Assembly: GCF_009914755.1 (NCBI RefSeq)
Contig: NC_060926.1
DNA length: 64,000 nucleotides
Source: the human T2T-CHM13v2.0 reference genome, Homo sapiens
Reading direction: 5' to 3' (one strand)
Shown: positions 3,976 through 53,195 of the stretch, piece by piece
Layout of the letters: each line of letters opens with the position of its first letter
Position numbering within the stretch: the first letter of the stretch is position 1
Made by a program: the position numbers and the translations under genes
The notes under the pieces: model-generated
What the model was told of the DNA's origin: nothing
Seen by the model: only the letters and a program-made list of their open reading frames with translations
The model's database searches: none

Positions 3976-5297
3976 CTAGTTACTATGCCCAGAGGCATTC
4001 TGGAATGATTTGGGTCCCTGTGATGAGAGGCCAGAGAGCCAAGAGCATATTTTTCCAATGGGTTAAAGAAATTCTATATAGTAGATGTATTTCTGTATCC
4101 ATCCATACAGCACTTACTATGGACCCATGTTCCAAGTACCTAACAAAATTTAACCTACTTATATTTTTATTTGCAGACGCCGAAGATCCAAGGGATGAAA
4201 GTAAAAGCCAGAAATCATATCCAGCTGGTTCTCTTTCACCTAAATGGACTTTTAAGGGGTTCAAATTTGAATGACACTGGATGAAATCCAGCCGTCCAGT
4301 AGAGCCCATTCCCCACCACCCGGTAATCATTCCCTGCCCGGTTCCTGTGTGTGTCTGTGATGAGAAAGTATCTGCTGGGCACCTGGAAAGGAGTAGTGTA
4401 GGAGGATCTGACACAGTTTCTTACTAATAACTGGAGTATTTTCTTATTTTGCTTAGTAATATGGGAAATGAAACAATAAGGAGAATAAGGGATGGTGCTG
4501 TGGACAGTGACCAGGTCCAGAGACCAGGTTGAGACCAGCTAGGGAGACCAGAGTTTCAACAAAGTATGCTCAGAAGTCATGTGCCTGATCAGTTTCTGTT
4601 TTTTACATAATATAATGAAAATATAAGGGACAACAGCTACAAAAAGAGAAGTTCCAATGTCAGCCACAGAACAGAAGTGAAGTCACTGTGAAGGAAATAG
4701 TACAGAGTTTATTCAATGCTATAGAAGACATTAAGCATGATGACTTTAAGGAAGGTATGAATATCATTCATGAATGAGGGGATTGGCCAGGAGTGTGTAA
4801 ATGGCACCCACCAATGAGGAGGTGGAAGACTGCATACCTTCTATTATGCATTGAAATGGGATGTTACAAAGGGTTATAAAAGAGTGCTGATTTGCAAGAA
4901 TTAACAGGGAGCTAGGATAGTGCTAACCCTTCTTTTGACCCCTGTAGTTCATGGCAAATAGAAGAAAGAACAACCTTCTAATGAAGAGCTGGTATCAGTC
5001 ACTTATAACTCAGTATAGACTGTAGAGACTGTATTTCTTCTCTGAAGATATTTGCAAATTAAATTTAAGCCCTCTTTAGACCATGAAAGCTGGTAGGTTG
5101 TCTGTTGTGAATGGCAGCAAACCTGAAAGTACGTCACTTGCACAATTCTGGAGACTACCTTCCTGTTGGCCTCCAGAGCACTCTGGCCTCGTTTTCTTCA
5201 CATCCTTGGAGCCTTTCCTGCTCACTCTATTTTGGATAATTCTCTTCTTTCTCCCACAGCCGAATGTTGGGCTTTTCCAGAGATTTGCCACAGCTTT

Positions 5298-7589: not shown

Positions 7590-8158
7590 ATTTAGGAGCT
7601 AGAAAACATACTTTTGCTACCATGCTATTTCTATCTTTGGTAGCAAAGCTTTGGAGTTCATGACAATGCATTCTTCTTCATTCAAAGAAGCCTTATTCTG
7701 TTCACTTTTCCAATTGAACTCAACCAAAATGTAGTTATTCAAAACAGTGCCATCTACTGAGAGAAAACAGTAACAGCTTTGAAAGTAACTGCTATTTTGA
7801 GTCCCGGCATGGGAATTTCTCTCCTACTCCTATTTACGATTAAACAAAAATACAGCAAACCCAGAGTAAGATCATTGTATCAGCTGCCACATTTCAACCT
7901 CTGATGGTTGCATACATGCATCTGCCTTCTTTTTATGTCTCTTTATTTTAAATAGCACAGGACAGCAGAAGGCATGGCCAGTCCCCAGCTCAGACCACCT
8001 GGGCAGGCTGCATGCCTGGTTGATGATGAAGGGAGAGATGGTGTTCCCAAGCATTTTCTGTAAGAGGCGCTAATCCTTAGTTGTGCTTTCTCTGTCCTGA
8101 GCAGATCCTCCTTTGGGGCATTATAGTGCTTGGAGCCTGCCTCTCTGGCTTAAGATAA

Positions 8159-8592
8159 TTTTTTTTTATTATACTTTAAGTTTTAGGGTACATGTGCACA
8201 ATGTGTAGGTTAGTTACATATGTATACGTATGCCATGCTGGTGTGCTGCACCCATTAAGTCGTCATTTAGTATTAGGTATATCTCCTAAAGCTATCCCTC
8301 CCCCCTCCCCCCACCCCACAACAGTCCCCAGAGTGTGATGTTCCCCTTCCTGTGTCCATGTGCTCTCATTGTTCAATTCCCACCTATGAGTGAGAACATG
8401 CGGTGTTTGGTTTTTTGTTCTTGTGATAGTTTACTAAGAATGATGATTTCCAATTTCATCCATGTCCCTACAAAGGACATGAACTCATCATTTTTTATGG
8501 CTGCATAGTATTCCATGGTGTATATGTGCCACATTTTCTTAATCCAGTCTATCATTGTTGGACATTTGGGTTGGTTCCAAGTCTTTGCTATT
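8159..8592 (-). mobile_element. 5'-truncated L1PA3-like LINE-1 (ORF2 C-terminus + 3'UTR)
   Basis: Poly(T) at 8159; ORF2 end [10 protein letters not shown]...SLIGGN; G-rich 3'UTR; no TSD found. Confidence 0.95.
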
Positions 8593-9219
8593 AACACTTC
8601 CAAGTGAAGTCTCCAAATCAATTTTTACTCTTGAACACATTCTAAACATCTTTAACCTTAACTGCCATTTCTTAATGACCCCTTTGGAGCCTTTCCTATA
8701 GCACATTAGTGGCATCTGCCCTGGAGGGCAGGGGGACAGAGGAATAGGGAACAAGGCGGTCCTTAGAGATATTTTGAGACTACCCACCTTCCTCCTCAAG
8801 CACATTCAAAACAATACTTAAAACAGAAGACCCTACATCACTCTTTGGAAATATATTTTCAGAAATTGCATCACCTTTTAATTTTTCAGTGGCAAAACAC
8901 TTTCTATTGACAACATTCCATATCTTAAAGGAGAATTACTAGTTAAGAACAACCAGATTGGTCTTGTTAATAAAAAATTAATGCTAGCCATCTTGGCTAA
9001 TTATATATGGATACCTGTGTGTGTATATGTATGTGTGCAAACATGGCTGTGCATACACACGTACACACACACTCCTTTGCCCTCCCATCAACATGAAGCA
9101 TTTCATCTGTGAAATGGGATTACAGATGATTTTGCTAATTCCCATCTTCATAAATTTCTACATTTCTAAATTTTCCACAATTAACGTGATTAACGTGTAT
9201 TATGTTTGCAATTTTAAAA

Positions 9220-16559: not shown

Positions 16560-16810
16560 CCGCATATAGAGGTTAAGAGAGTGCTCTGGAGACAAACATG
16601 TTGGACTTCTATCCTGAGCATTGCTCCCTACCCCTGTGATCCTGGGTTAGTTAACCTTATCCTTCTGTTTAAGTTCCTTAATCTATAAAATGGGTAATGA
16701 CATTACTCACCTTTAAGGTTGCATTGAGGATTACATGAGTAGACACGTGAAAACTCCTACTGCAGTGCTTACCACATTGCTAATGTTCAGTAAATGTCAG
16801 CTGTGATTAT
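16560..16810 (+). mobile_element. MIR, near full length
   Basis: ggttaagagagtgctctggag...ctataaaatgggtaatg...gttgcattgaggattacatgag...tcagtaaatgtcagct. Confidence 0.75.
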
Positions 16811-17829
16811 GTTAATGATGATGATGATGATGAAGATTCTGAGAAGAGCAAGAATAATTATTATCATGTGTGAAGTGGTTAGAAGGCTGCAAATATATGT
16901 AATTCTTCCCATAATCAATGATCCACATCCAAAATCCCTCCTTAAGATTGAAACTCCAATTTAAGCCTCAAAATGGCAGCCCAATTACCCCAAATTGTAA
17001 AGATATTCCTGTAGAAGCCTAGCAATGTTTTCCAAGGACTATCAATGCCCTAAACCAGCTCATCTCAAACTTTTTAAAAAATAATCAAACTATTTTATTC
17101 TTTAGTTGTGAGAGTGTTAGAAACCCAATGCTTTGGCTATAAAGTTTCATACAAAATAATCAAAACACTCCAGGAGCTAAAATATCACCAGACACTTTTA
17201 TGGAGTCTGATGATGAGTGAGAAAGATCCATCCAGAAAGACCTATGAAAAATCATTATTATATTATACTCAACTGCTTTCATGCACCACCTACAGATGCT
17301 CAGGGAGAAGGAAATGATAGCTCTATGTAACATGATTTAAGCATTCCAGAGACTGTTGGCTTTGCCATGAAACATCAATTTCTTGGCACTTTCACATTAC
17401 TTGTTCATGTTGTCATATTTTTGGAGAAAAATAACAAAACAGTTGGACCAAACAATAATATTTCTCAAACAAATACACCTTCTGCCTTCTCTGGTGTTTT
17501 TATGTTTACATGCTTGAAAGAGCCAATAGTCATTACTACATCCAGGCAATAATATTGAAACTGGAAATGTACTTGTATCTTTGCAATAAATCACAGAAGA
17601 GAGCTGCTCTCTTAGTAGAGAGACCTAAAGATGGTAAAATAAATAGATAACTTGTCTTCTGTGGGAAAACAAAAAGTTTGTGTATGTGTGTGTCTTGGAT
17701 ACTACCAAAAGATGTCTATTTTTTCCTCTTTTTATGTGTTATATTCAGGCTTCCTTATATTTCTATCTTGATATGCAGAAATATATATTAATAGGTTGGA
17801 AAAATGATAAGTACAAACACAACAAAGAG

Positions 17830-18023
17830 CAGTAGTAATTTTCGAATTTGCTTATGCATCAAAATTACCTGGAGCTTTTTTTTAACACAGATTCCTGTGC
17901 CTAACCCCAACAGTTTCTCATTCAACAGGCCTAAGACAAAACTGAGACCTTGTATTCCTAATCAGTTCCCATCCAGGTGAAGCTGCTGCTGCTAGATCAG
18001 GGACCACCATTTGAGAACCAGTG
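17830..18023. mobile_element. MER5A DNA transposon
   Basis: gcatcaaaattacctggagc...ccaggtgaagctgctgctgct...gggaccaccatttgagaaccagtg. Confidence 0.8.
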
Positions 18024-18504
18024 ATGGAGAAGAATGGTCACCAACCTTACTTGGTATCACAGAACGAGTGTTCTGGTCTTAACACTTCTGTGTGACCCAA
18101 AGCACAATATTTAATTTCTCCAGATTAGTTTCCCAATGGTGAAATGAGGAGTTTGCACAAGACAAGCTTCGAGATTTTTTTTCAACACCAATGAACCATG
18201 AACGCTAAGCTTTCTCTGTGCCTTGTAGCCTCTGAAAGGCACCAGACTGATTTAGGTGCTGCTCCTCCATCATGCACAGGGATTCTGTCCTTGATTTGGT
18301 CTCCATCAATGATTTGCAAAGGTTGTCAAAAGCAGCAAGGGCAGTTAAATAGATGGCATCCTATTTCTAAAAAGTAAAATGTTTACAACTTGTTAGCTCT
18401 TCCTCCCATGTGTAGTAGAGAGAATACATCATCGGATTCGGCTTCAAATGAACATCCTTCATAGTGTCTGTCTTAGTAGGAGAATTGACATAATAACAAA
18501 AATT

Positions 18505-18740
18505 GAAATTTATATTTATCAAATACTTACTATATGCCAAACACTATAAGGTCTTTATATACATTGTCATTTAGTCCTTATTGTAACCCCGTAGGGCATT
18601 CAATATTGTTATGCTCAATTTAGGCAGCAAAATGTACTCAGAATAGCCTTTCAATCCACTCGAAGTCACACGGATCAAGCAGCAAAACTGAGATGCAAAA
18701 TCAACCTAGTCTGATTTCAGATCTAGGGCCCCTGATCATG
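18505..18740 (-). mobile_element. MIR
   Basis: atttatcaaatacttactatatgccaaacact...gtcatttagtcctta...aagtcacacgg. Confidence 0.6.
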
Positions 18741-18764
18741 GTGAAAGTTTAAATTTTATTGCAT

Positions 18765-19117
18765 CTATATATATATCATATATATAAAATATATATGATA
18801 TATATAATATATTATATATGATATATCATATAAAATATATATATGATATATCATATATAAAATATATATATGATATATCATATATAAAATATATATGATA
18901 TATCATATAAAATATATATATGATATATCATATATAAAATATATATGATATATCATATATATAAAATATTATATGATATATATAATATATTATATATAAT
19001 ATATCATATATATATAATATATATGATATATATATTATATATGATATATCATATATATAAGATTGCATATATATAATTGTGTATATATATATAAATGTAA
19101 TAAAATATATATAAAAT
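18765..19117. repeat. AT-rich minisatellite with ~25-27-bp unit containing the palindrome ATATGATATATCATAT
   Basis: Repeated atatgatatatcatatataaaatatat units; almost entirely A/T. Confidence 0.9.
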
Positions 19118-19616
19118 TGTAGTATAAACTGCAGTTATACCCTAACTTAGGGTGAATATTTGGTTCCAACAACTGATCAGGTGAAAGGATGAGATGGGAG
19201 AAGTGTGAGGGCAGAAATTCAGTGGGCAGAGCCAGTGAGACTCATGCTGAAATCCAGGTAGATTCAAAACACAAAAGCCATCAAAGTAGGTCAAAATCAA
19301 ACCCAGAGCAGCTAATGGGCTACTGGGAAGATATAAGAACGGGGAATTATATGGGAGCTAGTCCAAGATGGTTCCTGGAATAAGACTTGTTAGTACTGAA
19401 GAAGGAATCTCATTTATCTAAAGAAGCCATCCTTTGTCCTAGAGCCTGACCCTGGCTTATCACTTAACCCACTCCTACACATGGGCAAAACAAACACTAG
19501 GCTAAGAAAGGCCAGTAATCCACGGATATTATCCCAGTTCTTCATAGGGAGAAGAAAATTGACTTGATTCTTAAATTACTCAGCATCAAAATCATTTTAA
19601 TTTTACCAACAAATAA

Positions 19617-19919
<303 letters not shown>

Positions 19920-20217
19920 AAAATGGAATATTTTATATTTAGAGGACTCTGAGTGACTTACTGGAAATCTGCCCATCCTCAAAGCTCCAAACAAGTTACC
20001 AGCCAGATTCAGTGCTCTTTTGCAAAGGCCTTTTCGGCAATAGTGGCTCCTGATTTCCTCAGTAGGTCCTAAGAAGGGCCATTCTGGTTGAACAGAGGCT
20101 GAGAGACTCTTTAAACTGCATTTACTTATTCTTTTATAGGATTCTATATTTATTTGGGGTGTGTTGAAATGAATGTCTGTGGCAACTCCAGTGTTTTAAT
20201 TTTTTAATGTTACGTTT

Positions 20218-20735
20218 GTTGAAGATCAAAATATGCCACCCCAACATAAGCCACTTTGGCATAAGTGTTATTTTGAACTGGAGGCAAATGAGATCCAACA
20301 GATGCATGTGCCTTCCCGGCACAACCCTGATCTGAGTAAAAGCAGAAACTCCTGAGAAATGAGAACTTCCATCAACTCCTTTCATAGGGAAGTTTTCTGG
20401 CTATGAAAAGAACAAAAAGTCAGCACTGAGATGGACCTGCACAAGCAAACCTTACTCCATGAGCGCCCCCATGTGTTAACCTTCTGCCTCGGAAGGCTAA
20501 CGGTCTTGTCACCACTACAAAGGCATTGCTCTTTGCTGAGATGCTATGTAAGCCCAAGTTCTAACCATCCCTTTGTGCTACTCATCACTAAGATTCCTCC
20601 TTGTACCCTGCACAGGATAATAAGCTGAACAATCTGTTTTTCTCCTGTTACGCCGTCTTCTGTCAGTCTGATTTGCAGGGCCCCAGCAAATAACCTAAGA
20701 CTGGTAAAGGAAAAAGACTTTTTACCTCCCTTTCC
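20218..20735 (+). mobile_element. MER34-like ERV1 solo LTR
   Basis: tgaagatcaaaatatgccaccccaacataagccactttggcataagtgttattttgaactg matches the MER34 5' end. Confidence 0.75.
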
Positions 20736-21019
20736 TGTTCATGATATCTGAGGGACTGAGAAGAGAAGAAGGAAGTTAAGCCTCTGACTCAAGCTATCCC
20801 CTGGACCACCAACACTGTACATTCTTAGCAGGCATGCTGGAGGCTTTCCTCCATTCCAGGGGCTGCACAAGGTGTTTTCCTAGAATGAGACCCCTACTAA
20901 CCTTCCCCAGGGGCTCGCAGACATATAAGGCTGGCAGACACATCAATGATGAGCTACCATGGAAGCAGAATTATATCAATAATTTTTCTCTCAAAAATAC
21001 CCCCATACAGTCTTCCCCA

Positions 21020-21270
21020 TCTCAGTAAACAATAAAGGTAAATGTTATCGCAATGTTTACAATATTTTCTACATGTTTTACGTATGGTAACTGATGAAAG
21101 CATTACAACCACACTATAAAGAAATACTATCAGTAATTCCACTTTATAGATGAGGACAGTGATGCACAGAAAAGTAACTTGCCTGAGGCTGCAGGAAGTA
21201 TATAACAGAATCAGGAATTAAGCCAGAGCAGTATGGCTCCAGGCTCATCATGCTAATACACATGACTCCC
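21020..21270 (-). mobile_element. MIR
   Basis: ccactttatagatgaggacagtgatgcacagaaaagtaacttgcctgagg. Confidence 0.7.
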
Positions 21271-21289
21271 TTTCTAACTGGAAGCTGCA

Positions 21290-21580
21290 TTCCAGATGGG
21301 CAGGCCCAAATGCTTGGCTCCTTCTCTTTTTCTTCCACCTTATTCCCGTTCAATTTCAAAACACATCTCACCTTCTCCTCCACTGCCTCCCTGGTCCAGG
21401 CACCGTTGAACCTCACCTAGATTATAGCGACAGCTTTTCACTGGTCTCCCAGCTTCTGCCCTTGAGCCTCCATGGTCTATTCTAATAACAACAAGAGTGA
21501 CCTGGACCTGGGCTCCAAAGCCTGTGATGCTGTATGAACTCAAGGTAAAAGCCAGTTCCTCACAGTCTTTTCAGGGCCTC
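21290..21580 (+). mobile_element. L2 fragment
   Basis: ctcctccactgcctccctggtccaggcacc...actggtctcccagcttctgccctt. Confidence 0.6.
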
Positions 21581-21939
21581 CAGGTGTTCATGCCTCACTG
21601 ATGGCACATCCGGGAGCTTGCATGATGACCTTGCATTGCCCACCTCAGCCTCCATACAGCCATAAGGCACAGACTTATCAATGGCACACAATCTTATCAG
21701 ATCATGTATATGTTCTGCTGAAGCATTGTTAGATACGAATTTATCACAGAGCCCTAGCCATCATTAACAGAAGGTAATAATTTATAAGTGATGGACTGAC
21801 TACACAGTAGGAGGCCATACCCCAGAAGTCATCCCTTGAAGGAGAACTGCCTAGAAAAGCTCCACAACCACTAACATCTATGTCCGGTATTTCGGCCACC
21901 GATACTTTGAGTTTATGTGCCGTAGCAACTGCTATAGGC

Positions 21940-22200
21940 AACTCAAATGGTAGTGAGAGCATAGGCTTTGGGATCAGACTGCCAGAGACTGTATCTTAGC
22001 TCTATCATTTACTATAACCTTTGCCAAGTTACTTTACCTCTGCCTGCCCTAGTCTAATCATCTGGTAAGATAGCTGTCATGAAAGTCCTGGTCCAAAATG
22101 TCAAAGTGATGAACAAATGGGCCAATATATGTAAAGTACTCACAACAGAGTCGTGTCTCCTAAAAACTCAAAAATGTAAGATATCATTATTAGTATTATT
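21940..22200 (+). mobile_element. MIR
   Basis: gagagcataggctttgggatcagactgcc...accttgccaagttactttacctctg. Confidence 0.7.
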
Positions 22201-22739
22201 ATAGTATTGAGAGAATATACTCACAGTCCTTAGTAGTCTTGTCTTGAAAATGATATTTCAAGGAAGTTCAAGTAATCAATGTGCACTCTAGTATATCACA
22301 TCCTTGCACACGTGGCTAGAATGAACCATCTGTAGATTGCAAAGCTGAGAACCAGGCTCTGGAACAAGCAGTCTTCTCTAACATACTGCCACCAAGTGAG
22401 GGCCTGAGTGAATGACAAGCTTTGATTCCTGTAGAACATTTTATCTCTCCTGAAAAAGAAACAATCATAGAACGAATCCAATCAAATATTGTGAAACTCA
22501 ATTTTAATAATTTTAGTTCCTCTTGACAAAACAAATTCTGGGCCTAAATTTCCTAGATTATTTCTTCAAATTTCTGTATCTTATCACCTGTATATACCCA
22601 GTAAGAGCAATTATATGGAAGTAGCAAATGACCTAAAAAGACTGTCTTGAAGCTGAACCGTGAAATTACATTTATTTTTAATTTTCAGAAACCCTGGATC
22701 CTACCCTTTTATTTTATTCTTCTTTCCATCAAATGAGCC

Positions 22740-34545: not shown

Positions 34546-36433
<1,888 letters not shown>

Positions 36434-38333: not shown

Positions 38334-39209
<876 letters not shown>

Positions 39210-39214
39210 ATAGG

Positions 39215-39847
39215 ACATTTTGACATGGCAGAATAGGAGGCTCCTTACTCTACTCCACCCACAGACATAGCCAATAAATATATATTCACAGATGACTTCC
39301 CTCTGACAGAAAATCAAAAACCAGTTGAGAAACTACTACCCGCTGGATAACTGAGAAAATATCCACATCATAAATGATGACATTAAAAACATGAAATGTG
39401 GAATCAGGGACAGTAAAAATACAGTGTGTGTGTTTGAGATCAAAATTAAGGTGTTATTGGCTTAAAATAACCAGTTATAAGAGATTTTATATATCCCTCA
39501 GGGTAACTATAAAGCAAAACCTATAATAGATAAACAAAAGAAAAAAATATATATCCAAACATACCACTACATAAAGCCATCAAACCATAAAGAAAAAAAA
39601 CAAGAGAGGTAGAAAACAACAAAGGATCTTAAAACAACTAGAAAACAATAAACAAAATGGAACTGGAAAAATTTTACCTGTCAATAATTACTTGAATGTA
39701 AGTGGATTAAATTATTTGATCAAAATGCATCTAGTGACTGAATGGATTAAGAAAGTAATAAGAGCTACATATATTTTGCCTCCAAGAGACTCATTTTACC
39801 TTAAAAGAAACCCATAGACTGAAAAAAACGAAAAACTGATATTCCAT
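39215..39847 (+). mobile_element. L1M (L1MA-like) 5' piece and start of ORF2 endonuclease
   Basis: aacaaaatgg...tcaataattacttgaatgtaagtggattaa...caagagactcatttt...gatattccat. Confidence 0.7.
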
Positions 39848-40902
39848 ACTTCCTTGGTCAGTGGGGAAAAGTGCCCCACCTGCTCTGAAGAACAAGGAGG
39901 AGGTGGACCCCCATTCCTCTAGAGATCTAATCATCAGTGTGGACCACCCCTAAGGGAGGGAAAAGTACAGCCCACCAAAGCCCCGCCTTGTGTCAAGGGA
40001 AGCACAAGCATGGCACCAGACACTGACATGGAGAGGGAATCATCTATTCCCCACTGCCCCTCTCTTTAGTGCACTATTGCAAACTCAGCAGTGACTCTTC
40101 CCATTGGGGCCCAGAGAGTGTGGGCTAAAAGAGTGTGCTCCTCAGTCTTCTCCAGCAGCACCAACCCCACTGAAGGCAAATGCACACTGAGGAAAGGCAT
40201 ATTTTGTGCTTCTTCATTGCCTCTGCCCCATCTCTACTTGTTGGAGCTTACTCTTAAGTAAGGACTGCAGCCTGAATTCTACAACCAAATGCAATTACCT
40301 CACTATAACAATTAACATCTGAGAAAGCTACAAAACTAACTACAGCCAAGAAACCCATACAGAGCCTTGGCATCCTGAAAGCACCCCAAAACAAGGCCAT
40401 TTAATAATATACAATATACATCACAGTAATACCTCCAAGGGAAAAAAAAGAGTAAATAATCAAGAAGCCCAATTAAAACAATAGCAAATTCAAGGAAGAA
40501 AGTAGAAGAAGAGAAGAAGGAGAGGGAGAAGGAGAAGAAGGAGAAAGAAAGTGTCAGCTCCTCTGATGGGAAAGAATCAGCACAAGAACTCTGGCAAGAC
40601 AATGAAAAAAAAACAAAAAAACAAAAACACAAAGTGTTTCATCAGCTCCAAAGGATCTCATTAACTACTCAGCAATAGATCCTAACCAGAATGAAATGTC
40701 TAAAATGACACATATAGAATCCACAATATGGATGAAAACAAATTCAATGAGATCCAAGAGAAAGTTGAAATGTAACAGAAAGAAGCCAGAAAAAGGATCA
40801 AAAATTTGAAGTACCTAACTGTATTTAAAAAATGAATAAACAGAACTGCTGGAATTAAGAAGTTCAAATTTTAAAAAATATTTCAAACTATCATTTGAAG
40901 CC
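39848..40902 (+). mobile_element. L1PB/L1PA16-like 5'UTR and ORF1 N-terminus
   Basis: GC-richer UTR, then agaatcagcacaagaactctggc...gatcctaaccagaatgaaatgtct...aatgagatccaagagaaagttgaaa. Confidence 0.65.
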
Positions 40903-41123
40903 TTTTTTATTTTATTATTATTATACTTTAAGTTTTAGGGTACATGTGCACAATGTGCGGGTTAGTTACAGATGGATGCATGTGACATGATGGTGTGCTG
41001 CACCCATTAACTCGTCATTTAGCATTAGGTATATCTCCCAATGCTATCCCTCCCCCCTCCCCCCACCCCACAACAGTCCCCAGAGTGTGATGTTCCCCTT
41101 CTGTGTCCATGTGTTCTCATTGT

Positions 41124-44942
<3,819 letters not shown>

Positions 44943-45005
44943 TATGATGTTAGCTGGTTATTTTGCTAGTTAGTTGATGCAGTTTCTTCCTAGCCTTGAT
45001 GGTCT

Positions 45006-46022
45006 TTACAATTTGGCATGTTTTTGCAGTGGCTGGTATCGGTTGTTCCTTTCCATGTTTAGTGCTTCCTTCAGGAGCTCTTTTAGGGCAGGCCTGGTGG
45101 TGACAAAATCTCTCAGCATTTGCTTCTCTGTAAAGGATTTTATTTCTCCTTCACTTATGAAGCTTAGTTTGACTGGATATGAAATTCTGGGTTGAAAATT
45201 CTTTTCTTTAAGAATGCTGAATATTGGCCCCCACTCTCTTCTGGCTTGTAGAGTTTCTGCCGAGAGATCCACTGTTAGTCTGATGGGCTTCCCTTTCTGG
45301 GTAACCCGACCTTTCTCTCTGGCTGCCCTTAACATTTTTTCCTTCATTTCAACTTTGGTGAATCTGACAATTTTGTGTCTTGGAGTTGCTCTTCTCGAGG
45401 AGTATCTTTGTGGCATTCTCTGTATTTCCTGAATTTGAATGTTGGCCTGCCTTGCTAGATTGGGGAAGTTCTCCTGGATAATATCCTGCAGAGTGTTTTC
45501 CAACTTGGTTCCATTCTCCCCGTCACTTTCAGGTACACTAATCAGATGTAGATTTGGTCTTTTCACATTGTCCCATATTTCTTGGAGGCTTTGTTCATTT
45601 CTTTTTATTCTTTTTTCTCTAAACTTTTCTTCTTGCTTCATTTCATTCATTTGATCTTCCATCAGTGATACCCTCCCTTCCAGTTGATCAAATCAGCTAC
45701 TGAGGCTTGTGCATTCGTCACGTAGTTCTCATGCCTTGGTTTTCAGCTCCATCAGGTCCTGTAAGGACTTCTCTGCATTGGTTATTCTAGTTAGCCATTC
45801 GTCTAATTTTTTTTCAAGTTTCTCAACTTCTTTGCCATGGGTTGGAACTTCCTTCTTTAGCTCAGAGTTGTTTGATTGTCTGAAGCCTTCTACTCTCAAC
45901 TCATCAAAGTTATTCTCTGTCCAGCTTTGTTCCATTGCTGGTGAGGAAATGCGTTCCTTTGAAGGAGGAGAGGTGCTCTGATTTTTAGAGTTTCCAGTTT
46001 TTCTGCTCTGCTTTTTCCCCAT
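45006..46022 (-). pseudogene. L1 ORF1p, disrupted
   Basis: MGKKQSRKTGNSKNQS... ends prematurely at 45729; resumes to ...RYQPLQKHAKL. Confidence 0.93.
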
Positions 46023-46595
46023 CTTTGTGGTATTATCTACCTTTGGTCTGTGATGATGGTGACATACAGATGGGGTTTTGGTGTGGATGTCCTTTCCATT
46101 TGTTACTTTTCCTTCTAACAGTCAGGACCCTCAGCTGCAGGTCTGTTGGAGATTGCTGGAGGTCCACTCCAGACCATTTGCCTGGGTATCAGCAGTGGAG
46201 GCTGCAGAACAGTGGATATTGGTGAACAGAAACTGTTGCTGCCTGATCGTTCCTCTGGAAGTTTTGTCTCAGAGGAGTACCTGGCCGTGTGAGGTGTCAG
46301 TCTGCCCCTACAGGGGGTTGCCTCCCACTTAGGCTACTCGGGGGTCATGGACCCACTTGAGGAGGCAGTCTGTCCGTTCTCAGATCTCAAGCTGCATCCT
46401 GGGAGAACCACTACTCTCTTCAAAGCTGTCAGACAGGGACATTTAAGTCTGCAGAGATTTCTGCTTCCTTTTGTTTGGCTATTTCCTGCCCCCAGAGGTG
46501 GAGTCTACAGAGGCAGGCAGGCCTCCCTGAGCTGCAGTGGGCTCCATCCAGTTTGAGCTTCCCGGCCACTTTGTTTACCTACTCAAGCCTTGGCA

Positions 46596-46772
46596 ATGGC
46601 AGGCACCCCTCCCCCAGCCTCGCTGCCACCTTGCAGTTTGATCTCAGACTGCTGTGCTAGCAATGAGCAAGGCTCCGTGGGTGTAAGACCCTCTGAGCCA
46701 GGTGCGGGATATAATCTCCTGGTGTGCCATTTGCTAAGACCGTTGGAAAGCGCAGTATTAGGGTGGGAGTGA
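46596..46772 (+). pseudogene. L1 ORF0 homolog (antisense 5'UTR ORF), frameshifted C-terminus
   Basis: MAGTPPPASLPPCSLISDCCASNEQGSVGV matches the primate L1 ORF0 N-terminus; position ~440 nt from the L1 5' end. Confidence 0.8.
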
Positions 46773-47235
46773 CCCAATTTTCCAGGTGCCATCTGTCACC
46801 CCTTTCTTTGACTAGGAAAGGGAATTCCCTGACCCCTTGTGCTGCCCAGGTGAGGCAATGCCTCACCCTGCTTTGGCTCACGCTCGGTGCACTGCACCCA
46901 CTGTCTGACACTCCCCAGTGAGATGAACCCGGTACCTCAGTTGGAAATGCAGAAATCACTCGTCTTCTGCGTCACTCATGCTGGGAGCTGTAGATTGGAG
47001 CTATTCCTATTCGACCATCTTGGCTCCACCCCCAATTTCATGTTTTTAAAGGCTACATAGTACTCTATTGTGTATACACACCAAATATTTGTATACATTC
47101 ACCCACAGATAGGCACTACAGTTGTTTCCATATTGTGGCTCTTGTGACTAATGCTGCAATCAATATGGGAGTGTAGCTATCTCTTCAACGCACTGATTTC
47201 ATTTCTTTGGATGTATACCCAGTAGTGGCAGAGCT

Positions 47236-47688
47236 GTGAAACCCACCCAATAGTCCCATAGGCAACTTTTTGAATAAATATAGAAATTGACCTTTCTGGT
47301 CTTAAAGCTTGAAACTTACATTCATTTTTTCTGCATTCCTTCCCCAGGAAATGACCATCAGGCCTCTAAACAAAAGTATCAAAGAATTGAAACTCATCCA
47401 TCACCACATCCAGACAATGCAGTGCAGGCTTCCTTATTCATCATGATTGTTTTCTTGCCCCTCTCTAGTTCCTGTTTTCTTACATATTGTTACATGTGTT
47501 CCCTGCTCTATAACCCCCTCATTGTAGTTGGTCAGGGAAATTGATTTGAGACTGATATCCCACCTCCTTGGTTGCAGCACCCCGTTAAATCCTTCTTCCT
47601 TCTTCCTGGCACTACTCATTGTCCTAATCATTGGCTTTCTTTGTGGTGAGCTGCAGGACCTACACTGGACCCCTGGCCTTTTGGTTAT
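47236..47688 (+). mobile_element. ERV1-class solo LTR (LTR45/MER4-group-like) nested in L1MA
   Basis: tgaaacccacccaatagtcccatagg...agaaattgacctttctggtcttaaagcttgaaacttac. Confidence 0.65.
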
Positions 47689-50234
47689 CTGTGGATCATT
47701 AGTGATTGTATTTTTAGTTTTTTGAAGAGGCTTCATATTGTTTTCCAAAGTGGCTGTACTAATTTACAATGCCACTGATGTTGTACAAGGGTTCTCTTTT
47801 TTCTATACCTTCCCCACACTTGTTATTTGTTGTCTTTTTGATAAGAGATGATCTAACATGTGTGAGATGATATTTTATTGTGGATTTAATTTGCATTTCT
47901 CTGATGATTGGAGAGGTTCAGCACTTTTTCCTATATCTGTAGTCCATTTCTATGTATTCTTTTGAGAAATTACTATTTAGAACCTTTGTCCATTTTTAAT
48001 TAGGGTTATTTCTTTTTTTTGTTATTCAGTTGTATGAGTTCCTTGTGTATTTTAAATATTAGCCTCTAATCCAATCTATGATTTGCAAATGTTTTCTCCC
48101 AGGTTGTGGGTTGTCTTTTCATTCTGTTAATTGTTTCCTTTGATGTTTAGAAAGCTTTCAGATCAATGCAGTGACATTTGTCTGTTTTTGTCCATCACAG
48201 TGATTTCACATAGCTCCAGACTTATGCCATGGAGCTTTACCACTATGTTTATGTTCTCCTCTAGTAGTTTTACAGTTTCAGCTCATATATTTTAAGTCTT
48301 TAGCCCATTTTGAGTTGATTCCTGTATAAGGGGTAAGAAAATCGTTTACTTTTATTCTTCTGCATGTGGATATCCAATTTTCCCAACACCATTTATTGAA
48401 GAGACTGTTCTTTTCCCATTGTGTGTTACTGGCACTTTTTTCAAAAATTAATAGACTGTAATTGTGGGTGTTTATTTCTGAACTCTCTATCCTAGTTCAT
48501 TGGATGATGTATCTGTTTTATGCCAGCACCATGCTGTTTTGACGACTATAGCTTTGTAAAGTGTTTTGGAATCTGGTGGTGTGATGCCTCTAGCTTTGTT
48601 CTTTTTGCTCAAGATGGCTTTGGCGTGGCCTTTTGTGGTTTCATGTGAATTTTATAACTTCTCTTTCTATTTCTGTGAAGAATGACCTTGAGACTTTGAT
48701 TGAGATTGCATAGAGTCTATGAATGGCTTTGGGTAGTACAGATATTTTAAAAATATTCTTTCAATACATTAACACAGAAAATCTTTCAGTTTATTTGTGT
48801 CATCTTCAATTTCTTTCATCAATGTTTTACCATTTTCAGTATATAGATCTTTCACATTCTTGGTTAAATTTATTCCTAAGTATTTTATTTTATATTTGGT
48901 GCTATTGTAAATTGGTTTATTTTTTTATTTTTTAAAAAGATAGTTCATTGTTAGTGTGCAGAAATGCAACTGGTTTTTGTAAGGTGAATTTGTTTTCTGC
49001 AACTTCACTGAATTTCTTTGGCAATTCTAAGAGATTTTGGGAGGAGTCTTTAGAATTTTCTCTATATAAGATCATATCATTAGCAAACAGAACATCTCAC
49101 TTCCTCCTTTTCTATTTGCATGACTTTCTTTGTTTTTCTTGCTTAATTTTTCTGGCTGGAACTTTTAGTACTATGCTAAACATAGTGGTGTGAAGAGGCA
49201 TCTTTGTCCTGTTTTTTATTTTAGAGGAAAAGCCTTCAACTTTTCACCATTGATTATGATGTTAGCTGTGGGCTTATTGTATATAGCCTTTATTGTGTTG
49301 AGAAACATTCCTTTTATACCTAATTTATTGACAGTTTTTTTAATCATGAAAAGATGTTAAATTTAGTCAAATGCTTTTTTTGTGTGTTGATTGAGATATT
49401 GATATGTTTTTGTCCTTCATTCTGTTATTAAATTATGTTGCATCTATTGATTTGTATATGTTGAATCATCCTTGCATCCCAAGGATAAATCCCACTTGAT
49501 TATGGCAAATGATCTTTTTAATGTACTTTTGAATATAGTTTGCTTGTATTTTGTTGACAATATTTTTATCTGTGTTCATTAGGAATAATAGTCTGTAGTT
49601 TTGTTTTCTTATAGTGTTTTTCTTTGGCTTTGGCATTGGGATAATTCTGGCCTTGTAAATTGAGTTTGGAAGTGCTTCCTCCACTTCAGGTTTTGCAAAG
49701 GTTTGAATAGGATTGGTATTAGTTCTTCTTTAAATGTTTGGTAGAATTGAGCCATAAAGTTATGAGGTCTTGGGGTTTTCTTTGATGTGAGACTTAATTG
49801 ATTATGTAATCTCCTTACTCATTATTGGTCTGTTCAGATTTTCTATTTTATTGTGTTTTAGTCTTGCTAGGTAATGTTTCTAGGAATTTACCCATTTCTA
49901 TCAGATTATTTAATTTGTTGACATATAGTTGTTTATAGTAATCTTATGATTATTTGTATTTCTATGTTATCAGTTGTAATGTCTCCTCTTTCATTTCTGA
50001 ATTTAATGAGGCCTCTCTTAGTTTGTGTAGCTAAAGGTTTGTCAATTTTGTTTAGCTTTTCAAATAACCAACTCATAGATTCATCGATATCTTTAAGTGT
50101 TTTAACACCTCTGTTTTATTTATTTTTGCTCTGGTCTTTGTTATTTCTTTCCTTTGTGCTAACTTTGGGCTTAGTTTGTTCTTTTTTTATTCCCCTAGTT
50201 CCTTGAGGTGTAACACTGGGTTGTTTGAGATCTT

Positions 50235-50376
50235 TCTTTTCTTTTTTTTTTTTTTAAATAGTATTATTTTTAGAGGCAAAGTCTTACAATATAGCCCACG
50301 CTGGGTTTGAACTCAGGCTGAATTGATCCTCCCTCTGAGTGGGAGAGAGTACAGGCATGCAGCATTGCACATGGGA
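50235..50376 (-). mobile_element. FLAM/Alu monomer, diverged
   Basis: Poly(T), then gtcttacaatatagcccacgctgggtttgaactc...tgatcctccc...tacaggcatgc. Confidence 0.6.
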
Positions 50377-51129
50377 TTGTTTTTTATTTTCTTTAGGAAG
50401 AAAAAAAGAATTAGTGTAAGTTTCCTTCTTAGAACTGTTTTTGTTGCACCCCATAAATTTTGATATGTTGTGTTCTATTTTTACATGCTAAAGATATTTT
50501 TAATTTTTGCCTATAATTTCTTCTTTGACCCAATACTTGTTCTAGAGCACATTGTTTAGTGTCCACATGTTTGTTAATTTCCCATGATTCATCCTGTTAT
50601 TGAATTCTAGTCTCAAAGCGTCATGGTTGTAAAAGACGCATAACATGATTTAATCTTCCTAAATTTGTTAAGACTTGTTTTGTGCCTAACATATGATCTA
50701 ACTTGGAGAATGATAGATGTATACTTGAAAAGAAGGTGTATTCTGTTGCTGTTGGGTGGAAAACTCTGTGTATATCTGTTAGATACGTTTGCTCTATAGT
50801 TGAAATCTAATGTTTCCTTATTGATTTTCTGACTGGTCAATCTATTGTTTGAAGTGGGGAACTGAAATCCCCTACTATTACTGTGTTGCAATCTATATCT
50901 TTGTTCAGATCTCTTAATGCTTGTTTTATATATTTAGGAGCTCCCAATTTGGGGTGCATGTTTCTGTATAATTCTTATATCCCCTTGATGAGTTAATTGC
51001 TTTATCACTATATAATAACCTTCTTTGTGTCTTTTAACAGTTTTTGACATAAAGTCTGTTTTCTCTGAAATAATAGATGTAGCTACCTCTGCTTTTACAT
51101 TCCACGTGCATGGAATATCTTTTAAAAAA

Positions 51130-51210
51130 TATTTTATTTTATTTTTATTTTAGATCCAGAAGGTACATGCGTGGGTTTGTTATGTGGATATATTGCATGA
51201 TGCAGATGTT
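51130..51210 (-). mobile_element. L1PB/PA16-like extreme 3' end with tail
   Basis: ttttattttagatccagaaggtacatgcgtgggtttgttatgtggatatattgcatgatgc. Confidence 0.75.
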
Positions 51211-51670
51211 ATCCATTCGTCTAATTTTTTTTCAAAGTTTTTAACTTCTTTGCCATTGGTTCAAACTTCCTCCTGTAGCTCGGAGTAGTTTGATCATCTG
51301 AAGCCTTCTTCTCTCAACTCGTCAAAGTCATTCTCCATCCAGCTTTGTTCTGTTGCTGGTGAGGAGCTGCATTCCTTTGGAGGAGGAGAGGTGCTCTGAT
51401 TTTTAGAGTTTCCAGTTTTTCTGCTCTGTTTTTTGCCCACCTTTGTGGTATTATCTACCTTTGGTCTTTGATGATGGTGATGTACAGATGGGTTTTGGTG
51501 TCCCATCTGTACACCTTGATGTCCTTCCTGTTTGTTGGTTTACGTTCTAACCGACAGGACCCTCAGCTGCAGGTCTGTTGGAGTTTGCTAGAGGTCCACT
51601 CCAGACCCTGTTTGCCTGGGTATCAGCAGTGGTGGCTGCAGAACAGTGGATATTGTTGAACCGCCAATGC
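51211..51670 (-). mobile_element. L1PA3/4 5'UTR-ORF1 junction fragment
   Basis: GKKQSRKTGNSKNQSTSPPPKE peptide; homologous to 45795-46235. Confidence 0.9.
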
Positions 51671-51885
51671 GGGAAAAAAATGCCAGACAAGAATTTTATA
51701 TTCTGCAAAACTAAGCTTAATAAGTGAAGGAGAAAAATGTCTTTTCCAGACAAGCAAATGCTAAGGGAATTCATCACCATAGGACTGGCCCTACAAGAGA
51801 TGCTTAGTGGAGTTCTAAATATGGAAATAAAATGATGATATCTGCTATGAAAGCACACACAAGCACATAGCCATGGACACTGTAA
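51671..51885 (+). mobile_element. L1PB/PA16-like ORF1 C-terminal fragment
   Basis: aagaattttatattctgcaaaactaagcttaataagtgaaggag...caagcaaatgctaagggaattcatcacc. Confidence 0.7.
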
Positions 51886-51921
51886 ACCTCATTTACAGTG
51901 GTAAACCTGTAAACCTTCCAG

Positions 51922-52069
51922 TTCAAGGAGAACTACAAACCACTGCTCAATGAAATAAAAAAGGATACAAAGAAATGGAAGAACATTCCATGCTCATGGG
52001 TAGGAAGAATCAATATCATGAAAATGGCCATACTGCCCAAGGTAATTTATGGATTCAATGCCATCCCCA
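51922..52069 (+). mobile_element. L1PA3/4 ORF2 fragment (~150 bp)
   Basis: ttcaaggagaactacaaaccactgctc...ttcaatgccatcccca; homologous to 35011-35158. Confidence 0.9.
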
Positions 52070-52073
52070 ATGC

Positions 52074-52631
52074 CTATAAGAAAGGCTCCAAAGGGGTCAT
52101 TAAGAAATGGCAGTTAAGGTTAAAGATGTTTAGAATGTGTTCAAGAGTAAAAATTGATTTGGAGACTTCACTTGGAAGTGTTAATAGCAAAGACTTGGAA
52201 CCAACCCAAATGTCTAACAATGATAGACTGGATTAAGAAAATGTGGCACATATACACCATGGAATACTATGCAGCCATAAAAAATGGTGAGTTCATGTCC
52301 TTTGTAGGGACATGGATGAAATTGGAAATCATCATTCTCAGTAAACTATCGCAAGAACAAAAAACCAAACACTGCATGTTCTCACTCATAGGTGGGAATT
52401 GAACAATGAGAACACATGGACACAGGAAGGGGAACATCACACTCCGGGGACTGTTGTGGGGTGGGGGGAGGGGGGAGGGATAGCATTAGGAGATATACCT
52501 AATGCTAAATGACGAGTTCATGGGTGCAGCACACCAGCATGGCACATGTATACATATGTAACTAACCTACACATTGTGCACATGTACACTAAAACTTAAA
52601 GTATAATAATAATAAAATAAAATAAAATAAA
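52074..52631 (+). repeat. Inverted duplicate of 8159-8701: 109 bp unique DNA plus L1PA3 3' end and tail
   Basis: 52074-52182 is the reverse complement of 8593-8701 with 1 mismatch; identical flank/L1 junction. Confidence 0.95.
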
Positions 52632-53195
52632 GAAATGAAAGTGGGACATCGCTACTGATTTCATAGAAATAAAAATGATTATGGAAGAATACTATGAACA
52701 ACAGTACATGAACAACTTGGATACCCTAGATGAAATAGACAAGTTCCTAGAAACACACGATATACTAAACTGACTTGTGAAAGAATAGAAAATATGAACA
52801 GACTCACAGCTAATAAAGAGAACAAAGAAAAGCCTAGAGCTAGATAGCTTCAGTGGCATATTCCACTGAACATTTAAATGCGAACAAAAACCCTCTCAAA
52901 CTCTTCAAAAAATTGGAGACAGAAAAATACCTCCCTCATTCTATGACTCACCTAGAATAGTGAAATTTATGGAGAGAGAAGGTAGAAGTTACCAGGGATT
53001 GGAGGAGAAGGTAATAGAGACATTTTTAGTGAGTATAGTTTCTGTTTGGGATAATGAAAAAGTTCTGGAAATGGATAGTGATGATGGTTACATAACGTTG
53101 TGAATGTACTTAAAGCTACTTAATAGTACACTTAAAAATAGTTAAAATAATAGTGAATTATATGTTACGTATATTTTACAATTCTTAAAATAAAT
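52632..53195 (+). mobile_element. Old L1M ORF2 fragment and L1MB-like 3' end
   Basis: gaatactatgaacaac...ctagatgaaatagacaagttcctag; gtttctgtttgggataatgaaaaagttctggaaatggatagtg. Confidence 0.75.

What the first reader, a model, noticed from the sequence alone, without database searches (positions are those of the whole stretch)
8159..8701. 540-bp inverted duplication 44 kb away, carrying unique flank plus the identical L1 truncation junction
Seen: 8593-8701 (non-L1 DNA) matches the reverse complement of 52074-52182 with one mismatch in 109 bp. Both copies continue through the same junction (ggaagtgtt|aatagcaaagac) into an L1PA3 3' end. The L1 parts differ at roughly 14-15 of ~430 bp by manual count and share a non-consensus aacctAcaca. 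Independent L1 insertions cannot share a 5' flank. Inference: the distal copy was captured at the inversion's right breakpoint. The mechanism could be a long-range template switch, a staggered-break duplication marking a larger 44-kb inversion, or reverse transcription of a read-through RNA.
Basis: partly seen in the sequence, partly recalled or inferred. Interest (0 to 1): 0.75.

Follow-up and report, generated by a model that had tools for sequence, protein, structure and literature searches.

The report
Copied patch at small inversion edge
A 546-base piece of human chromosome 2 is present twice, 44 kb apart and in opposite orientation; the second copy is likely a patch that DNA repair copied into the edge of a small (about 4-6 kb) inversion, a known kind of repair scar and likely not the mark of a 44-kb inversion.

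Summary
The duplication is real: 8156-8701 matches 52074-52619 inverted (546 nt, 18 mismatches: 1 in the 109-bp flank, 14 in the L1 body, 3 in the tail). The flank has 2 hits genome-wide. The shared L1 variant is rare (43 of 4,916 copies), so flank and L1 were likely copied together. The 8-kb copy is likely the donor: its flanks meet at a TT|AAAA L1 target motif, while the 52-kb copy sits in a patchwork of L1 fragments with fold-back fillers. That patchwork is the right edge of a small inversion (at least 47,036-51,207): an old L1 and its host L1 are split, and their target-site duplication now lies on opposite strands. A published gibbon/macaque inversion, chr2_inv7, maps to about the same place, not to 8.7 kb. 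The left-edge L1 (40.9-47.0 kb) has mismatched flanks and looks chimeric. Best reading: multi-jump DNA template switching among inverted L1s, one jump reaching 43 kb; about 10-15 Myr old (recalled rate). A 44-kb staggered inversion is disfavoured; an RNA route is not excluded. No ape genomes were available, so donor direction and timing are inferred. New member of a known kind.

The parts
8156..8592 (-). Proximal 5'-truncated L1 3' end with short A-tail (likely donor; young L1PA type, label recalled)
   Evidence: flanks meet at TT|AAAA, no clear TSD
8593..8701 (.). 109-bp non-repeat flank at the L1 5' truncation junction, continuous with single-copy DNA to its right (donor copy)
52074..52182 (-). 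Inverted copy of the 109-bp flank, embedded between two L1 pieces (recipient)
52183..52627 (+). Inverted copy of the proximal L1 3' end, sharing the rare A at 52569; longer patterned A-tail
51922..52069 (+). 148-bp L1 ORF2 fragment (L1 position ~4430-4580); source unresolved, 5 mismatches to the L1 at 35011-35158
51876..51921 (.). Junction filler built from local direct (10-nt) and inverted (9-nt) repeats
51672..51890 (+). 3' part of ORF1 of an old L1, continuation of the ORF1 broken at 40904
51208..51670 (-). L1PA ORF1-region fragment (L1 position ~810-1250) with a 15-nt insertion (51501-51515) whose 12-nt core is the reverse complement of 51481-51492
51108..51207 (-). Last ~80 bp and A-tail of the old L1 plus its right TSD copy (51108-51119), now inverted
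47036..51125 (-). 3' part of the ancient host L1, inverted relative to its own 5' part: the minimal inverted segment
40905..47035 (-). Full-length L1 at the left breakpoint, non-matching flanks, likely chimeric (older-type 5' part, younger-type 3' end)
39850..40904 (+). 5' UTR and first part of ORF1 of the old L1
39190..39849 (+). 5' part of the ancient host L1 ending in the left TSD copy (39838-39849)
52628..52945 (+). Ancient L1 ORF2 piece right of the tail; its first 16 nt match 47033-47048 (reverse strand) at 13 of 16, a possible worn TSD

Best explanation
The 52-kb copy is likely a DNA-templated patch: during a multi-jump repair or replication restart among inverted L1 copies, a DNA end likely paired with the L1 at 8.2-8.6 kb, copied it together with 109 bp beyond its 5' junction, and rejoined at the right breakpoint of a small local inversion. 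Shown: the duplication, its two-copy status, the split old L1 with its TSD on opposite strands (inversion of at least 47,036-51,207), the fragment patchwork and fold-back fillers at 51.2-52.1 kb, the non-matching flanks of the 41-47 kb L1. Inferred: donor at 8 kb; an older full-length L1 once stood at 52.6 kb in + orientation and recombined with an inverted L1 at 40.9 kb, giving the chimeric left-edge L1; the right-edge L1 was then (or in the same event) reduced to fragments and its 3' end overwritten from the 8-kb L1 up to within ~40 nt of the tail. One event or two cannot be told. Age: soon after the 8-kb L1 inserted (1 shared rare variant against 14 differences), roughly 10-15 Myr on a recalled rate. 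No function is proposed; it is a repair scar in introns of LINC01594.
For: Two hits only. Shared rare A: 43 of 4,916; 12 of 406 pairs of unrelated copies share any rare non-CpG allele. Donor polarity: proximal flanks meet at TT|AAAA and the flank continues into single-copy DNA; the distal flank interrupts L1 sequence on both sides. Inversion: ancient L1 continues from L1 position 2262 at 39.8 kb (+) to 2273 at 51.1 kb (-); 12-nt TSD, 11 of 12 identical, at 39838 (+) and 51108-51119 (-); ORF1 halves at 40671-40904 and 51675-51862 are collinear on one relative (L047). chr2_inv7 in gibbon/macaque has a 6.6-kb left breakpoint interval and a 3.3-kb inverted core inside LINC01594 (PMC9712629 Tables S5, S9). 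Chimeric left L1: 13 of 13 alignable 5'-relatives have the other 3'-end type (1 of 14 did not align); 14 of 16 diagnostic columns outside the search region are older-type at 46.4-47.0 kb against 9 of 14 of the other type at 41.0-44.6 kb. Possible swapped TSD 13 of 16 (null 19 of 3,985 15-mers at 12 of 15 or better). Fold-back fillers.
Against: No outgroup sequence was seen, so direction, order and timing are inferred. The first 141 columns carry 1 of 15 mismatches (P about 0.06; longest clean run P 0.18), which leans to a younger, shorter tract. The A-tails differ. The swapped TSD has 3 mismatches in 16, many for its age, in A-rich L1 sequence. The chimera test is noisy: against the youngest copies the 41-kb L1 is young-type only at 40914-41403 and older-type at 8 of 10 columns at 41826-42810, so the crossover is not fixed and an intermediate L1 lineage could mimic it; 2 of 13 relatives of the ORF1 fragment natively have the young 3' end. 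chr2_inv7 is called heterozygous in gibbon and its lineage is 'n.d.'. No donor above 91% was found for the ORF1 fragment among 40 scored of 8,614 candidates. The microhomology at the flank's outer junction is imperfect (4 nt, offset by one base).
Confidence: 0.62

Rival explanations
1. Retrotransposition-coupled template switch: a new L1 began reverse transcription at 52.6 kb, its cDNA left the RNA almost at once, paired with the homologous L1 at 8.2-8.6 kb, copied through its junction, and was joined via twin-priming fragments; possibly one of two synchronous L1 insertions bridging a reciprocal inversion.
For: The copy ends at an L1 tail in A-rich DNA and runs in the cDNA direction into the 5' flank; outward-facing L1 tails at both inversion edges resemble the tumour bridges of bioRxiv 10.1101/2024.08.27.596794, which also reports 22 templated insertions; patterned tail unlike the donor's.
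Against: The rare donor allele lies ~40 nt from the tail; the ORF1 fragment's relatives mostly have another 3'-end type (11 of 13), so the fragments are unlikely to come from one RNA; the templates described there are typically <250 bp and within 15 bp of the site, not 546 bp and 43 kb away; the left-edge L1 is more diverged (2.7-3.8% non-CpG) than the right-edge pieces (1.5-2.2%).
Confidence: 0.2
2. Reverse transcription of a read-through RNA (such as LINC01594 pre-mRNA, in which the proximal L1 is sense), primed at the L1 A-tract, truncated 109 nt past the junction and inserted 43 kb away.
For: The 3' boundary is the A-tail; polarity fits the minus-strand lncRNA that spans both sites (annotation); shared rare allele.
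Against: No TSD around the distal copy; no 3' transduced flank; a random insertion lands within 44 kb with probability of about 3 in 100,000 (arithmetic on genome size) unless the RNA acts in cis; the neighbouring fillers are DNA fold-backs; the age of the lncRNA is unknown.
Confidence: 0.07
3. Later one-sided gene conversion: an independent L1 stood at 52.2-52.6 kb and only the flank plus ~30 nt of L1 were copied in, more recently.
For: No mismatch in columns 7-141; L1 bodies as far apart as unrelated copies; tails differ.
Against: Needs the 0.9% allele to be shared by chance (about 3% for any such sharing); the gradient is not significant (Fisher P 0.14; permutation P 0.06).
Confidence: 0.06
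4. Staggered breaks at the ends of a 44-kb inversion (8.7-52.1 kb) duplicated the 546 bp.
For: Inverted copies at two ends of a segment are the classic staggered-break signature (recalled).
Against: The published inverted core lies at about 46-51 kb and its left interval cannot start left of ~34.8 kb; a 44-kb inversion with a re-inverted core would give the opposite Strand-seq pattern; 39-41 kb appears to keep its ancestral orientation relative to 52.6 kb if the worn TSD is real; proximal target motif intact. No old repeat spanning 8701|8702 or the proximal L1 was found to test continuity directly.
Confidence: 0.04
5. Assembly artefact or a multi-copy chimeric retroelement family.
For: None found.
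Against: The copies differ at 18 sites, four of them CpG-type, as aged paralogues do; 2 hits genome-wide. Reads were not inspected.
Confidence: 0.01

Closest known systems
MMBIR/FoSTeS multi-template-switch rearrangements (Hastings, Ira, Lupski 2009, PMC2621351, abstract read) and 'local n-jumps' / templated insertions (Li et al. 2020, PMC7025897, passages read)
   Same: Discontinuous duplication mixed with deletions and inverted pieces, all templates local, short fillers, endpoints in repeats.
   Different: Old and present in the reference, seen in one genome only; the longest jump appears guided by ~400 bp of L1 homology on one side; single-event origin not shown.
L1 recombination-mediated inversion, L1-RMI (Lee et al. 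2008, PMC2603318, passages read)
   Same: Inverted L1s at both breakpoints, chimeric element, non-matching TSDs, accompanying deletions (12 of 49 there).
   Different: The right-hand L1 is reduced to fragments and its 3' end matches a third L1 43 kb away; older than the human-chimpanzee split by divergence.
L1 bridges, twin priming and switching, and templated insertions in tumours (bioRxiv 10.1101/2024.08.27.596794, passages and section 9 read; PMC11702581, passages read)
   Same: L1 at both edges of an inversion, tails outward, genomic DNA copied into the L1.
   Different: Templates there are typically <250 bp within 15 bp; here 546 bp from 43 kb away and fragments of mixed L1 types.
chr2_inv7 (Mercuri et al. 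2022, PMC9712629, Supplemental Tables S5, S8, S9 rows read; cites Maggiolini 2020 for macaque)
   Same: Same locus: both breakpoint intervals in LINC01594, core 3.3 kb, left interval 6.6 kb, about the length of the 41-47 kb L1.
   Different: That call has kb-scale intervals, no mechanism, lineage 'n.d.', and the rows read do not mention the 546-bp duplication.

Membership tests
MMBIR/FoSTeS, local n-jump | Several discontinuous pieces with duplication, deletion and inversion at one locus | tested here: met
   Five pieces between 51208 and 52627 in both orientations, gaps of ~500 and ~1,100 L1 positions
MMBIR/FoSTeS, local n-jump | 2-5 bp microhomology or short templated filler at junctions | tested here: inconclusive
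   Templated fillers at 51501-51515 and 51876-51921; imperfect 4-nt match at 52070-52073; ancestral ends unknown
MMBIR/FoSTeS, local n-jump | Templates are copied (source stays in place) and local | tested here: met
   Source of the 546 bp intact at 8156-8701; other pieces' sources partly lost or unresolved
MMBIR/FoSTeS, local n-jump | All junctions arise in a single event | not testable with these tools
   Needs ape outgroups
L1-RMI | Inverted L1s span both breakpoints | tested here: met
   40905-47035 (-) and 51922-52627 pieces (+)
L1-RMI | Breakpoint elements are chimeric | tested here: inconclusive
   Left L1: 13 of 13 5'-relatives have another 3' type, but the crossover is not fixed; right L1 fragmentary
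L1-RMI | TSDs no longer match their own element and are swapped | tested here: inconclusive
   Left L1 flanks do not match; candidate swapped TSD 13 of 16; the other TSD is lost
Retrotransposed read-through RNA (5' transduction / chimeric retrocopy) | TSD flanking the inserted unit | tested here: not met
   No exact 10-14-nt repeat of the post-tail sequence next to the distal 5' junction
Retrotransposed read-through RNA (5' transduction / chimeric retrocopy) | Poly(A) at the 3' boundary | tested here: met
   A-rich tail 52603-52630; may be inherited from an earlier L1
Staggered-break inversion of 8.7-52.1 kb | The whole interval between the copies is inverted relative to outgroups | tested here: not met
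   Indirect: published core about 46-51 kb only (coordinates carried over by annotation bounds); no outgroup alignment run
Multi-copy chimeric retroelement family | Same flank|L1 junction at many loci | tested here: not met
   2 matches

The most novel reading that the evidence does not exclude
The patch was copied from RNA in cis: L1 reverse transcriptase used the nascent transcript running through this locus (LINC01594-like, with the proximal L1 in sense), primed on its internal A-tract, to mend a break 43 kb away in the same transcription unit, leaving a fixed germline fossil of transcript-templated repair at an inversion breakpoint.
Probability: 0.07. Interest if true: 0.7.

Novelty: new member of a known kind. 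Interest (0 to 1): 0.33.

Why it matters
It gives base-level anatomy and a likely mechanism to a catalogued but unexplained primate inversion (chr2_inv7, lineage undetermined), and it shows that old repeats and their target-site duplications can reveal such an inversion from one genome. It is a germline example of a long template jump of the kind mostly described in tumours and genomic disorders, and its order of events is directly testable with T2T ape assemblies. No gene is broken: both copies are intronic in LINC01594. The 97% inverted pair could pair in the pre-RNA or seed a rare 43-kb inversion; neither was tested.

Tried and rejected
TSD search around each copy: no exact 10-16-nt repeat in the right place. 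Old repeat or paralogue spanning the proximal junctions: none among 40 scored candidates each, so continuity at 8155|8593 rests on the target motif only. L1 at 35 kb as donor of the ORF2 fragment: 5 of 148 mismatches and two shared minority alleles, but unrelated copies give 4-10 (16 of 29 loci covered it): unresolved. 41-kb L1 as donor of the ORF1 fragment: rejected, 46 of 437 mismatches, 2 shared against 12 and 34 private. One RNA for all right-edge pieces: divergences fit but subtype does not. A scan of the 100 kb on each side for donors was not done; genome-wide searches stood in and score only 40 candidates. Mismatch gradient: not significant. Papers: LINC01594 search gave 18 papers, none on rearrangement by title or abstract start; '2q12 + SULT1C3 + inversion' gave 0; a five-term L1 templated-insertion search gave 0. 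The inversion table of Yoo et al. 2025 (PMC12058530) and the supplement of Maggiolini 2020 (PMC7605249) could not be read and may bear on lineage and breakpoints; Gilbert et al. 2005 on chimeric L1s is recalled, not read.

Full report
Observation. The window holds inverted arms at 8156-8701 and 52074-52619, 546 nt with 18 mismatches and no gaps. One mismatch is in the 109-bp non-L1 flank, six bases from its outer end, 14 are in the 421-nt L1 body and 3 in the tail. The flank has two matches in the whole assembly. The L1 bodies are no closer to each other than to unrelated copies (14 against 8-19 and 12-24, 29 copies), so what proves common origin is the flank, the identical junction and one rare base: the A at 8206/52569 occurs in 43 of 4,916 exact-context copies, and only 12 of 406 pairs of unrelated copies share any such rare allele. 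The copy therefore likely extends to within about 40 nt of the tail and was made soon after the proximal L1 arrived. Subfamily names below (L1PA, L1M) are recalled from sequence features; no repeat library was available.

Which copy is the donor. With the proximal L1 left out, its two flanks meet at TT|AAAA, the L1 endonuclease motif (motif recalled), and the flank runs on into single-copy DNA. The distal flank instead sits between an L1 ORF2 fragment and the L1 3' end. The proximal copy is thus likely the original. There is no clear TSD at either copy, and no old repeat spans the proximal junctions to confirm continuity.

The recipient site. From 51.1 to 52.9 kb the order is: last 80 bp of an old L1 (-); L1PA ORF1 fragment 51208-51670 (-); old-L1 ORF1 end 51672-51890 (+); filler; L1PA ORF2 fragment 51922-52069 (+); four junction bases; the 546-bp copy; an ancient L1 ORF2 piece (+). 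Two fillers are made from adjacent DNA: a 15-nt insertion at 51501-51515 whose 12-nt core is the reverse complement of 51481-51492, and 51876-51921, with a 10-nt direct and a 9-nt inverted repeat.

The inversion is small. An ancient L1 runs on the + strand to L1 position 2262 near 39.83 kb and resumes at position 2273 on the - strand at 51.12 kb. An old L1 inserted at that point; its 12-nt TSD (11 of 12 identical) is at 39838 on + and 51108-51119 on -. The two halves of that element's ORF1, at 40.7-40.9 and 51.7-51.9 kb, are collinear on one relative with about 500 positions missing (L047). So at least 47,036-51,207 has been flipped. Mercuri et al. 2022 list chr2_inv7 (GRCh38 108202615-108209228 and 108212576-108244744; heterozygous in gibbon; also macaque, Maggiolini 2020; lineage n.d.). 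Their Table S9 puts LINC01594 at both intervals and, as I read the rows, SULT1C3 at the second; with the window's annotation and no large indel this bounds the left interval's start to 34.8-45.6 kb, and a recalled offset puts the core at about 46-49.5 kb. The 8.7-kb site is outside. This argues against a 44-kb inversion, though Strand-seq intervals are coarse and I saw no outgroup sequence.

How the inversion likely formed. The full-length L1 at 40905-47035 has its tail in the old ORF1 and its exact 5' end against the ancient L1, with no TSD between its flanks. Of 14 elements closest to its ORF1 region, 13 aligned at the 3' end and all 13 have a different 3' type from it. Diagnostic columns are older-type at 14 of 16 sites in 46.4-47.0 kb and of the other type at 9 of 14 in 41.0-44.6 kb; a second contrast moves the switch to 41.4-41.8 kb, so chimerism is likely but the crossover is not placed, and 2 of 13 relatives of the ORF1 fragment show that mixed types exist natively. 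The 16 nt before its 5' end match the 16 nt after the distal tail at 13 positions (null 19 of 3,985): possibly the swapped TSD of a + strand L1 that once filled the 52.6-kb site. These are the marks Lee et al. 2008 use for L1 recombination-mediated inversions.

Mechanism. I read the 546 bp as one jump in a chain of DNA template switches: an end in the right-hand L1, near its tail, paired with the homologous L1 43 kb away, copied through its truncation junction for 109 bp, and returned by an imperfect 4-nt match to an ORF2 fragment, with further short jumps making the rest. This fits MMBIR as defined in the abstract of PMC2621351 and the local n-jumps of PMC7025897. Whether inversion and patch were one event or two is open. 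Confidence 0.62. The main rival (0.2) is a switch by nascent L1 cDNA, as in tumour L1 bridges and templated insertions; against it, those templates are typically under 250 bp and within 15 bp, and the fragments here are of mixed L1 types. RNA read-through (0.07), late conversion of the flank only (0.06; gradient P 0.06-0.18), a 44-kb staggered inversion (0.04) and artefact (0.01) are weaker.

Age and function. 15 differences in 530 nt (2.8%) suggest roughly 10-15 Myr on a recalled primate rate, which would fit an origin after the gibbon split. Both copies are intronic in LINC01594 and no exon is touched; nothing points to function.

Novelty. The inversion is catalogued; the mechanism classes are known. 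I found no description of this duplication in the searches run, but the two most relevant supplements could not be read. Verdict: real, explained as a repair scar, new member of a known kind, interest 0.33.

Noticed in passing
window 39190-51207: Nested old L1s split by an inversion, with a TSD on opposite strands (39838-39849 +, 51108-51119 -); gives base-level breakpoints for published chr2_inv7, whose lineage is undetermined.
   Followed up: yes
window 40905-47035: Full-length L1 with non-matching flanks, likely chimeric; more diverged from its nearest relatives (2.7-3.8% non-CpG) than most of them are from their majority.
   Followed up: partly
window 34554-36430: 5'-truncated L1 (+) that jumps from its 3' UTR straight to a patterned tail at a 3-nt match near 36403, lacking about 300 nt; possible donor of the 51922-52069 fragment; forms a 1.85-kb, 95% inverted pair with the 41-kb L1.
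   Followed up: partly
window 51664-51670 and 52067-52073: The same 7-mer ends both L1PA fragments at their junctions; may be a reused primer or chance.
   Followed up: no
window 51537-51552: Four substitutions in 16 bp just beyond the fold-back insertion; could reflect error-prone synthesis.
   Followed up: no
window 38721-39030: CpG-rich young Alu with an intact 16-nt TSD, inserted in an LTR-like element; candidate for a recent or polymorphic insertion (family labels recalled).
   Followed up: no
window 18750-19120: AT-rich stretch with many self-inverted matches, a hairpin-prone low-complexity tract inside the interval.
   Followed up: no
window 16711-22449: Two LINC01594 exons lie between the inverted 546-bp copies, a geometry that could favour RNA pairing, editing or back-splicing; untested.
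   Followed up: no
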